From Sphaeroforma arctica JP610 (Eukaryota): 32,116 nucleotides of DNA. The stretch covers positions 1-32,116 of the forward strand of contig NW_014040057.1 in NCBI RefSeq assembly GCF_001186125.1, read 5' to 3'. Under the pieces are notes generated by a model. That model ran no database searches and was not told the DNA's origin. It was given only the letters and a program-made list of their open reading frames with translations. Of the stretch, positions 18,447-20,747 are shown piece after piece (position 1 is the stretch's first letter; each line of letters opens with the position of its first letter). The position numbers and the translations under genes were made by a program.

Positions 18447-18614
18447 CTATATTGCCTTCGTTTGCGTCGAGTGCGTTGTAAGAAAATCAGCATCTGCGAT
18501 GTCTGATTCATGCGTCCAGGTACGTTCTCCATCTGTCCAATGCAGTAGGTACTCCTGGGACCCATCACCTCGGATGGACAGCCTATGGTCGACTATCGAG
18601 GAAAACTGAGTCTC
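18447..18614 (-). pseudogene. Chromodomain at the C-terminus of element C Pol
   Basis: Manual translation, not in the ORF track: ETQFSSIVDHRLSIRGDGSQEYLLHWTDGERTWTHESDIADADFL. Matches the I.DHR...EYL..W.....TW..E..l chromodomain pattern. Confidence 0.8.
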
Positions 18615-18769
18615 CTCAGGTTGATGTTAGGGGATTTTTGGAAGTGAATGTTTCCGGAGCATTGACCTCTTTTACGAGTCCAATTAGCTCATCACTGACC
18701 GAGTTAGGCTATTCGGGGGCTTTAGTCCTACCAAGGTTACAGACAAAATACTCGTTGCCCTCCCTGCAT

Positions 18770-19560
18770 ACTATTTTGTATGGTCCGCCATATGATGCTG
18801 GCATCTTGTTCATTTCACCTTGATAGCAGACCATGACAATGCCCCCTTCCTGGAATTATACATACATTTTTGTTGTTGGTATTTTCGGTCGTATGCTGCA
18901 CAGATCTTCTTTTGATATTGCACAACATTATTTTCTAGTTGTGGCCCGATGGCTTCTTCTAGATTCTGCAGTCGCTCTTCCCAAGATACTGTTGTACAGG
19001 GTGCGGTCACTGACTCTTTTTAGTCCGTTAGTTGATTCTGTCTGCGACCAAAGTAAACGTTAAATCGTGGTGACTTGTGCTTTCTTGATGTATGCGGATT
19101 GTGGCCCATCTGTACGAAGGGAAGTCGTGAAAACCAGTTACCTGGGTTTTGTTCAACAAATCTCCGTGACAGTGGTACGAGGTCTCTATGTGATCGTTCG
19201 TTCGCGACTAAGACTTTAGTTTGGTACGGCCGAGAGACTAGGTGTTGTATCGTCGCTTGTTCAACGACTTCGAAAGTATTCCATTAACATATTCAGTGCC
19301 TTGGTCACTCTGTATGATTTGTGGGAACCCATGTTCGCACATGATTGATACTAGCGTACGTGCTATAGTAGCCACTGATTTGTCCATCATTGGTCGTAGT
19401 ATGTTTTAATTTTTGATATGGTACGCATCCTTCGATGAACTTATGTACATGTTGTTGGATTTGGGGCCATTCCTGTCCATCTGTTTGCAACTTATTTACA
19501 GTTTCCTCGGGAGTGTAATGTCCCAAGTTGTGGTATTGCTCGATGATGTTGACACGTGTC
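18770..19560 (-). pseudogene. Integrase of element C (frameshifted, internally deleted)
   Basis: YHNLGH...WPQI...CVPYQK; HGFPQIIQSDQGTEY (about 19289-19333); PYQ...NERSHRDL; NWFSRLPFVQ; VYFGR; YGGPYKIV. Confidence 0.9.
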
Positions 19561-19565
19561 TTGTA

Positions 19566-20747
19566 TTATGTTGTCTGCGGTGCATATCCAGAGTGAACAG
19601 GTTGTGATGCTGCAACATGTATGGCAGGTTGTTCCCGCGTTGAGTCAAAGTATGGAGACTTCACTACCATCTTTGCTACTAATGTGACGCCCCATGGGGT
19701 CTTGCCACACGCTTTCGTGCATTCCTTGAGGAACGTATTGTTTGTGTTTTCCACTATCATCGGGGTTTCTTCTAGTAAAGACAAGAACGTTGGAAACCAC
19801 GTTGCATTAGGGTGGTATGGTACACATACCGTGATGCTGGTTGCCTCTTCAATGACTTTGTCAAGGACCTCAGGTATGAGTTCCCATGACGGGTTCGCCC
19901 ATGCATTCACTTCCTGCGCCCACTTCCATAGGACCGCATTCTGCTCTTTGATATAGTATTTATCTGTGTGTGCATTGTGTGCTGATGCAAACAGATCTAC
20001 TGTGAATTTCCCAAACCGTCTTTCAGCTTCTTTGTAGAATCTGGAGTGTAACATCCAGTCTATAGCTGATATGGTTATGGGCATGCTAGTTTCCAAGGTG
20101 GTGTACTCTTGGCTGTGAGCTGTTGTTTTCACGTCTTGTAATACCACTGACGTTTTAGTATTAAACGTGTATTCGTGTAGACGCGACAACACATCTACCA
20201 TCTGGTTGTCCTTACCTGGGACATGTATGCTAGAGAAGTGATGGTGGAATATTTTTGCTATCCATTTGGCTAGCATTGTGTGTAACGTCTGTTGGCTGTT
20301 CATTTGCGCGATCTCTTTATGATCTGACCACAGTGTTATGTACCTTCCATTGATGTATTCGGGAAAATGTTCCATGCTGTATACCAGTGCTAGGAGCTCT
20401 TTTGTGTTTGTGTCATAGCGTTGCTGTGCTGGATTCGGGCCATTGGGAAAATAGCGAATATCTCTTCTGACTCCATCGATGACTTGAAATAAACATCCTG
20501 TTGTACCATTTTCACTAGCATCGCTCATGATTTGAAACGGTGCCCCATCAACAGGGAATGCTATTGTCGCCGAACGCGAGATGGCTTCTTTGAGTTCTTT
20601 CCGCTTCTTTATTAGTTCCGGTATCCATAACATGGATATGTTCTGGTTCATTTTTCCTTTCATTAGGTTCCGGAAGTGTTTAGTTGTGTGGGCAAAGTTG
20701 GGGACATGATCGCGCATATAGTTCGCGAGTCCCACCGCTTTGTGCAT
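19566..20747 (-). pseudogene. Open 393-codon Pol segment of element C: RT connection, RNase H and Dam-like N6-adenine MTase (MTase about 19670-20060)
   Basis: RNase H motifs followed by DWML...FGKFTVDLFASAHNAHTDKYY...W...AWANPSW...VLDKV...TVCVPYHPNATWF. NPSW is at 19884-19895. Confidence 0.9.

What the first reader, a model, noticed from the sequence alone, without database searches (positions are those of the whole stretch)
18447..20060. Writer plus reader in one polyprotein: adenine MTase and chromodomain flank the integrase
Seen: downstream of the GPY motif, an unannotated minus-strand frame encodes a chromodomain (IVDHR...QEYLLHWTDGERTWTHESDI). Established: chromovirus integrases carry C-terminal chromodomains implicated in targeting integration to particular chromatin. 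Inference: the integration complex might both choose a chromatin context and deposit DNA methylation on the new copy, forming a self-contained epigenetic module. The dense nesting of related elements in this window would fit targeting to TE-rich chromatin.
Basis: partly seen in the sequence, partly recalled or inferred. Interest (0 to 1): 0.7.

Follow-up and report, generated by a model that had tools for sequence, protein, structure and literature searches.

The report
Methylase retrotransposon with overlooked cageless chromodomain
A broken jumping gene, in what is likely a single-celled relative of animals, carries an adenine-methylase domain and a chromodomain, which intact relatives hold in one protein; a 2026 preprint described this kind of element, but its text says this lineage has no chromodomain, and the one here lacks the pocket for methylated histones, so it likely does not read histone marks.

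Summary
The window has a decayed Ty3/gypsy copy (minus strand, 20974 to 17665) with RNase H, a Dam domain (Pfam E 9e-12), a broken integrase, GPY and a chromodomain (Pfam E 0.0013, fold confirmed). Stops, frameshifts and a deletion separate them here, but intact relatives hold all in one ORF.

The class is known. A 2026 preprint (10.64898/2026.05.21.726589) describes DAM-LTRs, including chromodomain-bearing ones, and a similar model. This scan also found the class before on other DNA. The host is likely an ichthyosporean, and the element groups with Abeoforma and Pirum sequences.

What is new: the preprint says this lineage lacks chromodomains, but it carries a cryptic one. None of 12 aligned clade members has the third aromatic cage residue, and this subfamily also lacks the first. 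Methyl-lysine reading is therefore unlikely, and the closest named host relative is reported to have no repressive chromatin states. One clade member has the chromodomain without Dam.

Best reading: two separable modules. One is a likely non-histone integrase tether (as in Ty3/Tf1); the other is a Dam likely tied to reverse transcription. One real nesting is present, which does not show targeting.

The parts
20772..20974 (-). 3' remnant of reverse transcriptase, with stops and a frameshift; cut upstream by the assembly gap at 20977-20996
   Evidence: tblastn with P0002 376-438, 79%; N run
20250..20627 (-). RNase H of Ty3/gypsy type, inside ORF 19566-20771
   Evidence: PF17917 E 1.9e-19, PF17919 E 3.7e-17
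19659..20069 (-). Dam-like N6-adenine methyltransferase domain (DLFA and NPSW motifs; intact relatives and other copies in the host have NPPW)
   Evidence: PF05869 E 9e-12; motifs; place 19889 differs in 34 contigs of run X1
19401..19565 (-). Integrase HHCC zinc finger, preceded by a stop at 19566-19568 and cut by a deletion of about 55 codons that also removes the start of the catalytic core
   Evidence: PF17921 E 3.5e-8; gap against P0002 892-946; other host copies go on into the missing stretch (loose ends at 19403 and 19418, read by eye)
18860..19402 (-). Rest of the integrase core and linker helix, with a frameshift near 19270 and a stop at 19020-19022
   Evidence: tblastn with P0001/P0002; translation
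18630..18855 (-). GPY / SH3-like integrase C-terminal module (GPY at 18786-18778), broken
   Evidence: translation; alignment of intact relatives
18477..18617 (-). Chromodomain of group II type: Thr at cage position 1, Trp at 2, Gly at 3, short loop
18374..18484 (-). Basic C-terminal tail of Pol (frameshifted here)
   Evidence: tblastn with P0002 1255-1288
17997..18002 (-). Polypurine tract GGAGGG just before the LTR
   Evidence: sequence
17665..17995 (-). 3' LTR, 331 bp, TGTAG...CTACA
   Evidence: sequence; varied loose ends at 17995 in other contigs, and contig 7 of run X12 spanning 17911-18477
16968..17665 (-). Insertion target: integrase 3' half of another gypsy family close to DAM-LTR protein P0039; the match starts exactly at the LTR end
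   Evidence: tblastn 53% over 176 aa from 17665; contigs of run X1 go on differently past 17662-17665
5743..12956 (+). Second DAM-LTR family: LTRs 5743-5963 and 12726-12956 (90% alike), 4-bp flank TTAG on both sides, RT, RNase H, Dam (about 11514-11936), zinc finger, then a deletion through most of the integrase and the chromodomain

Best explanation
This is a dead copy of a Ty3/gypsy DAM-LTR retrotransposon, likely of an ichthyosporean host, whose intact relatives encode protease-RT-RNase H-Dam-integrase-chromodomain in one Pol; the two extra domains likely act as separable modules and not as a coupled histone reader plus writer. Shown: domain order, single ORF in relatives, conserved NPP[WF] motif, chromodomain fold, loss of the aromatic cage. 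Inferred: after protease processing the cage-less chromodomain stays on integrase and helps it bind cDNA, target DNA or a non-histone host protein, as in Ty3 and Tf1. Inferred: Dam stays with RT-RNase H, as in DIRS, and would act on or bind the reverse-transcription intermediate in the particle, with host AMT1 maintaining any 6mA after insertion (the preprint's model, untested).
For: One ORF in three intact relatives. 25 of the 150 best clusters have Dam between RNase H and integrase; Pfam confirms Dam in 23 of the 24 scanned, 16 of them above the curated cut-off. The RT-RH tree puts P0001-P0003 in an 11-row clade (SH-like 99) with an Abeoforma protein and a Pirum protein. The Dam tree puts both window elements in a 13-row clade (SH-like 97). 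All 10 Dam-bearing clade rows checked keep NPP[WF]. Among Dam-region differences that split host copies, 10 of 14 are silent. Cage census: third aromatic in 0 of 12 clade rows, first in 5 of 12, and the first in none of P0001, P0002 and P0005; full cage in 31 of 44 non-Dam relatives and 7 of 14 other Dam-LTRs. The chromodomain is still conserved: 91% between P0001 and P0002 against 58% and 50% in the flanking linker and tail, and 47-49% against 11% in the upstream linker for P0003. P0162 (Pirum) has the short-loop chromodomain and no Dam. RNase H-to-Dam spacing is 10-90 aa (median 32, n 21); Dam-to-integrase core is 93-340 aa (median 148, n 25), like the RH-to-integrase span of non-Dam relatives (80-389, median 129, n 104). 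DIRS pol is RT-RH-MT without a DDE integrase (PMC3783388). The Ty3 cage-less chromodomain binds Brf1 and target DNA (10.1101/2021.07.27.453949). Creolimax is reported to lack repressive chromatin states (10.1101/2025.03.17.643675).
Against: No binding or enzyme data exist for this family. The protease sites are unknown, and both linkers around Dam have low pLDDT in the model, so Dam could stay on integrase. The linker argument is weak. H3K27me3 was detected in Creolimax by proteomics (10.1101/2021.11.30.470311), and plant group II chromodomains can still localise to heterochromatin (PMC3350952). The preprint's E. coli assay was negative, so Dam may not be catalytic. Trees are FastTree with SH-like support, midpoint-rooted; the clade did not appear as one group in the shorter RNase H tree. 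The host lineage rests on one gene. An intact copy in the host genome itself was not recovered.
Confidence: 0.55

Rival explanations
1. One reading: Dam and chromodomain both stay on integrase; the intasome reads a histone mark in TE-rich chromatin and methylates the new copy at the site.
For: Both domains flank integrase in one Pol. One nested insertion into another gypsy integrase. Other Dam-LTRs outside this clade do have a full cage (7 of 14). The preprint reports more 6mA on DAM-LTR copies in two ichthyosporeans.
Against: No cage in this clade. Chromodomain without Dam in P0162. 6mA marks transcribed chromatin, not TE heterochromatin. No repressive states found in Creolimax. Heterologous Dam was inactive. 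Host-like genes (Der1, HSF) lie 1.7 and 8 kb from the element's 5' break, though an assembly gap lies between.
Confidence: 0.1
2. The chromodomain is vestigial or only structural (it packs on the SH3-like domain or stabilises integrase) and has no say in where the element lands.
For: Cage lost across the clade; nearly unrecognisable in P0039; only 47-49% identity between subfamilies, below the integrase core at 73%.
Against: The fold is confidently predicted and conserved well above its flanks. It is kept in 11 of 12 clade proteins that reach the C-terminus, by the profile. Cage-less chromodomains are functional in Ty3 and Tf1.
Confidence: 0.2
3. Dam is not an active DNA methylase here but a nucleic-acid-binding or RT-accessory domain; 6mA on these elements comes from host AMT1 acting on transcribed copies, possibly because of where the copies land.
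For: The preprint says eukaryotic Dams align only to part of the prokaryotic domain and gave no 6mA in E. coli. Several more distant Dam-LTRs have lost the Asn of NPP. No PDB sequence match to the window's Dam at E up to 10.
Against: NPP[WF] and DxFA/DxMA are kept in all 10 clade rows. Silent changes dominate among host subfamilies, which shows selection on the protein, though not on catalysis.
Confidence: 0.13
4. The arrangement is an assembly chimera or a chance neighbourhood of pieces from different elements.
For: The copy is broken, abuts an N gap and sits among other TE pieces.
Against: The pieces are collinear with single-ORF relatives from three sources, and the same order recurs in 25 of 150 clusters.
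Confidence: 0.02

Closest known systems
Ichthyosporean DAM-LTR lineage (Fernandez-Moreno et al., bioRxiv 10.64898/2026.05.21.726589; main text read whole; figures and supplements not visible)
   Same: Ty3/gypsy Pol with a PF05869 Dam; nearest named relatives are Abeoforma whisleri and Pirum gemmata proteins; host likely ichthyosporean.
   Different: The preprint's text says this lineage 'lacks chromodomains'. Here it has a cryptic one that scores under the Pfam cut-off in the window and in all 11 clade proteins scanned (one of them, P0117, ends before the domain).
Chlorophyta DAM-chromovirus-like clade and EpiLTRs (same preprint)
   Same: Dam and chromodomain in one LTR retrotransposon; a similar epigenetic-toolkit argument.
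   Different: Different host lineage; no DNMT domain in P0001-P0003; the chromodomain here has no aromatic cage.
Group II chromodomain retrotransposons: plant CHD_II, dictyostelid Skipper-2, Ty3 and Tf1 (PMC3350952, PMC5006619, 10.1101/2021.07.27.453949; passages read)
   Same: C-terminal integrase chromodomain without the first and third cage aromatics. Ty3's was likewise overlooked.
   Different: The passages read mention no Dam in these elements. Skipper-2 and Ty3 target tRNA genes; there is no tRNA gene in this window. The N-terminal helix of the Ty3 domain is not predicted here.
DIRS tyrosine-recombinase retrotransposons (PMC3783388; passages read)
   Same: RT-RNase H-Dam order in pol.
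   Different: This element has a protease (in relatives), a DDE integrase, direct TG...CA LTRs and no tyrosine recombinase.

Membership tests
Ty3/gypsy LTR retrotransposon | Pol order PR-RT-RH-IN | tested here: met
   P0001/P0002 Pfam order; window collinear from the RT end on
Ty3/gypsy LTR retrotransposon | LTR with TG...CA ends and a polypurine tract | tested here: met
   3' LTR 17995-17665, PPT 18002-17997
Ty3/gypsy LTR retrotransposon | 5' LTR, primer site, gag and target-site duplication of this copy | not testable with these tools
   lost in the gap at 20977-20996; no genome held
DAM-LTR | PF05869 Dam domain inside the pol of a non-DIRS LTR element | tested here: met
DAM-LTR | NPP catalytic triplet | tested here: met
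   met in relatives (10 of 10 clade rows) and in other host copies; this copy has NPS
DAM-LTR | 6mA enrichment or methyltransferase activity | not testable with these tools
   needs long-read modification data or an assay
Ichthyosporean DAM-LTR lineage | Groups with Abeoforma/Pirum/Sphaeroforma elements in RT and Dam trees | tested here: met
   RT-RH clade SH-like 99 with Abeoforma P0028 and Pirum P0162; Dam clade SH-like 97 with P0028 and P0030. The preprint's own sequence set could not be seen.
Ichthyosporean DAM-LTR lineage | Absence of a chromodomain, as the preprint words it | tested here: not met
   chromodomain present in the window and in named Abeoforma and Pirum proteins; read as a missed domain, not as non-membership
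Group I (canonical) chromovirus | Three-aromatic methyl-lysine cage (Y24, W45, Y48) | tested here: not met
   window T/W/G; P0001 and P0002 S/W/G; P0005 H/W/G
Group I (canonical) chromovirus | Binding of H3K9me2/3 | not testable with these tools
   needs a peptide assay
Group II (cage-less) integrase chromodomain | Chromo fold after GPY, first and usually third cage aromatic absent | tested here: met
   definition from PMC3350952
DIRS | Tyrosine recombinase and inverted terminal repeats, no DDE integrase | tested here: not met
   rve integrase in relatives; TG...CA LTR; no recombinase hit among the 24 ORFs scanned
EpiLTR | DNMT domain in addition to Dam and chromodomain | tested here: not met
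   no DNMT hit in P0001-P0003

The most novel reading that the evidence does not exclude
In ichthyosporeans that have lost heterochromatin marks, the DAM-LTR chromodomain was rewired from a methyl-lysine reader into a tether for DNA or a host protein that steers new copies into 6mA-permissive chromatin or into sister DAM-LTR copies. The 6mA enrichment reported for these elements would then come partly from where they land, through a domain that the published text says is absent, and not only from Dam catalysis.
Probability: 0.13. Interest if true: 0.65.

Novelty: new variant of a known kind. Interest (0 to 1): 0.3.

Why it matters
The Dam-plus-chromodomain design is already in print as a preprint, so the headline is not new. 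The useful addition is a correction: the ichthyosporean lineage, in which the preprint measured 6mA and expression, has a chromodomain after all, and it is a cage-less one. That adds an uncontrolled variable, insertion-site choice, to the claim that Dam causes the 6mA on these copies. It also gives a holozoan case of group II chromodomain evolution, in a lineage where a close relative is reported to lack heterochromatin. Both points can be tested with existing long-read data.

Tried and rejected
No host genome is held, so intact copies, copy number and insertion sites could not be surveyed.

No RNA holder was listed for the element; this says nothing on expression.

The PDB sequence search with the Dam region gave 0 hits at E up to 10. 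Foldseek of the 686-aa model showed only integrases in the listed rows, and the wide structural search never ran because the machine was busy. The Dam call therefore rests on Pfam and motifs, not on a fold match.

The other half of the interrupted element was sought with one 20-nt motif and not found in the window. I first took 17300-17665 for a satellite-like repeat from read depth; one search showed it is integrase of another gypsy family.

No tRNA or Rfam hit in the window, so there is no sign of Skipper-2/Ty3-like tRNA targeting at this one site.

The best PDB sequence matches of the chromodomain are cpSRP43 chromodomains (E 2e-4); I treat this as shared loss of the loop, not as kinship. 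The Atlas gave Chromo clusters at 0.91, a lead only.

The model-based RT tree did not finish in 250 s; FastTree was used. No complex prediction was run, since no partner is known.

Rows dropped: one search used 35 of the 40 listed variant rows (left out 19868, the second 19869 row, 19877, 19899 and 19915, each carried by few contigs) and read each change alone, so its two 'stop' calls are artefacts of neighbouring changes. The 45 non-Dam rows of alignment A2 were hand-picked from 125 for C-terminal coverage (44 counted as non-Dam, P0162 in the clade). In one search one of the 14 'other Dam' rows (P0114) is truncated, and P0056 and P0117 were not scored for the same reason.

Full report
Observation. 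The minus strand from the assembly gap at 20977-20996 down to 18374 is a decayed pol gene. ORF 19566-20771 holds RNase H (PF17917 E 1.9e-19) and Dam (PF05869 E 9e-12, 45 bits against a cut-off of 28). The next frame piece holds the integrase zinc finger (E 3.5e-8). The stretch at 18617-18477 hits Chromo PF00385 weakly (E 0.0013, 19 bits, cut-off 25.1). Between Dam and chromodomain lie stops, about four frameshifts and a deletion of about 55 codons that takes out the end of the zinc finger and the start of the integrase core, so this copy is dead. Other copies in public runs go on into the deleted stretch (loose ends at 19403 and 19418, read by eye). A polypurine tract at 18002-17997 and a 331-bp LTR, TGTAG...CTACA, at 17995-17665 close the element.

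One Pol. A search with the RNase H-Dam stretch found 3 proteins among 335 candidates: P0001 and P0002 (1288 aa; 70 and 73%) and P0003 (995 aa; 51%). Each holds RT, RNase H, Dam, zinc finger, integrase core and the C-terminal module in one ORF; P0001 and P0002 also hold the protease. In the 150 best clusters of a whole-library search with P0005, 25 have Dam between RNase H and integrase. Pfam confirmed Dam in 23 of the 24 scanned, 16 above the cut-off. An intact copy from the host itself was not recovered, as no genome is held.

The chromodomain is real. A profile from 56 chromodomains outside the clade hit the window's six frames only at 18605 (20.4 bits) and hit 11 of the 12 clade proteins that reach the C-terminus; P0039 was missed, and P0030, which stops inside the domain, scored only 5.6 bits. 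AlphaFold gives three strands and a helix, in the 686-aa model and alone (mean pLDDT 81). All listed Foldseek rows for the small model are chromo-family domains, best CBX1 with rmsd 1.5 A over 52 columns; none reaches E 0.001. The domain is conserved above its flanks: 91% between P0001 and P0002 against 58% and 50%, and 47-49% against 11% in the upstream linker for P0003.

It is not a canonical reader. Methyl-lysine binding needs three aromatics, Y24, W45 and Y48 (PMC3350952, passages). The window has T, W, G; P0001 and P0002 S, W, G; P0005 H, W, G. Across 12 clade rows the third aromatic is present in 0 and the first in 5, and the loop after the Trp is 6-7 residues instead of 9. In contrast 31 of 44 hand-picked non-Dam relatives and 7 of 14 other Dam-LTRs (one of them truncated) have the whole cage. 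This matches group II chromodomains. In Ty3 such a domain was overlooked and binds Brf1 and target DNA, and in Tf1 it promotes DNA binding and intergenic insertion (10.1101/2021.07.27.453949, passages). Skipper-2 elements with the same losses sit next to tRNA genes (PMC5006619, passages). Plant group II domains can still localise to heterochromatin by an unknown partner, so chromatin targeting is not excluded.

Host and family. The HSF gene at 29054-30541 has its best non-self hits in EukProt genes CFRG3163T1 (74%) and Ihof_evm2s795 (52%), ahead of fungi. That these prefixes stand for the ichthyosporeans Creolimax and Ichthyophonus is recalled and comes from no call. In a 95-row RT-RH FastTree, P0001-P0003 fall in an 11-row clade (SH-like 99) with P0028 and P0162, and Dam needs 5 changes on that tree. 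In the Dam tree both window elements fall in a 13-row clade (SH-like 97). The shorter RNase H tree did not show the clade as one group.

What is known. Fernandez-Moreno et al. (bioRxiv 10.64898/2026.05.21.726589; main text read whole; figures and supplements not visible) report DAM-LTRs, with chromodomain-containing ones making 30.9% of DAM-TEs. They define five lineages, find more 6mA and expression on DAM-LTR copies in two ichthyosporeans, get no activity in E. coli, and propose methylation of the RNA-DNA intermediate followed by AMT1 maintenance. They write that the ichthyosporean lineage lacks chromodomains, and their screen used hmmsearch at E 1e-5. In my scans neither the window nor any of 11 clade proteins reaches the Pfam cut-off for Chromo, whereas 10 of 15 Dam-LTRs outside the clade do. 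A missed domain is the simplest account. A search for Sphaeroforma, ichthyosporean, retrotransposon, chromodomain and LTR (4 of 5 terms) listed 10 papers, seen as listings apart from the preprint; no title or abstract opening reports this domain. The library lacks most subscription journals. Earlier notes of this scan reached the same preprint for other genomes; I had found it first.

Are writer and chromodomain coupled? Probably not. P0162 sits inside the clade with the same short-loop chromodomain and no Dam. Dam lies 10-90 residues after RNase H (median 32) but 93-340 before the integrase core, about the whole span seen in non-Dam relatives, so the variable linker is on its C-terminal side. 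In DIRS the domain follows RNase H in a pol with no DDE integrase (PMC3783388, passages). This is weak evidence: both linkers are flexible in the model and the cleavage sites are unknown. Dam is under selection in the family: all 10 clade rows keep NPP[WF], and 10 of 14 differences that split host copies are silent, while the 21 that set this copy apart fall evenly on codon positions (8, 6, 7; 35 of 40 listed rows used). This copy's NPS is its own change.

Nesting. The LTR ends exactly where the integrase of another family, 53% like DAM-LTR protein P0039, begins at 17665, so one nested insertion is real. A second DAM-LTR family (5743-12956) and two RT pieces lie nearby but are not nested with it; pol-like matches cover 7.5 of 32 kb. 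Host-like genes lie on the other side of the gap. One nesting in a TE cluster fits relaxed selection as well as targeting. Creolimax is reported to lack repressive chromatin states (10.1101/2025.03.17.643675, passages), although proteomics found H3K27me3 in it (10.1101/2021.11.30.470311, passages), and 6mA marks active chromatin. A heterochromatin-seeking reader paired with a 6mA writer is therefore an awkward fit.

Verdict. The anatomy is confirmed and the class is known. The new point is a cryptic, cage-less chromodomain in the lineage said to have none. Most likely mechanism (0.55): separable modules, a non-histone integrase tether and a Dam tied to reverse transcription. The coupled reader-writer gets 0.10. 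Novelty: new variant of a known kind. Interest 0.3.

Noticed in passing
window 5743-12956 (+): Second DAM-LTR family, about 37% like P0002, with both LTRs (90% alike), 4-bp flank TTAG and a G-rich tract before the 3' LTR. A stop at 10015-10017 ends the putative gag in frame with the start of pol, and an internal deletion removes most of the integrase and the chromodomain.
   Followed up: partly
window 16968-17665 (-): Integrase fragment of a P0039-like family with a roughly 149-bp internal duplication; summed contig depth over its upper part is many times that of the element under study, which suggests a more abundant family.
   Followed up: partly
window 3680-4083 (+) and 15551-16872 (+): Two more gypsy RT pieces: one 63-68% like P0039, one about 50% like the second element's RT.
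   Followed up: partly
window 13100-15100 (+): Broken PIF1-like helicase (PF05970 E 1e-10 at 14190-14876), possibly a Helitron remnant.
   Followed up: no
window 29054-30541 (+) and 22722-23363 (+): Host-like genes: an HSF-type transcription factor in one 495-aa ORF and a Der1-like exon.
   Followed up: partly
P0034, P0036, P0038, P0040, P0043, P0044, P0048, P0050, P0052 (unnamed metagenome and assembly proteins): RH-Dam-IN Pol proteins outside this clade with strong chromodomains, seven with a complete cage; these are better candidates for a true reader-plus-writer element. Several have lost the Asn of NPP, and P0048 also has AT-hook-like repeats.
   Followed up: partly
P0162 (Pirum gemmata): Clade member with the short-loop chromodomain and no Dam: a likely Dam loss and a natural control.
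   Followed up: partly
window 6147-6599: 226-bp tandem duplication (97%) inside the 5' region of the second element.
   Followed up: no
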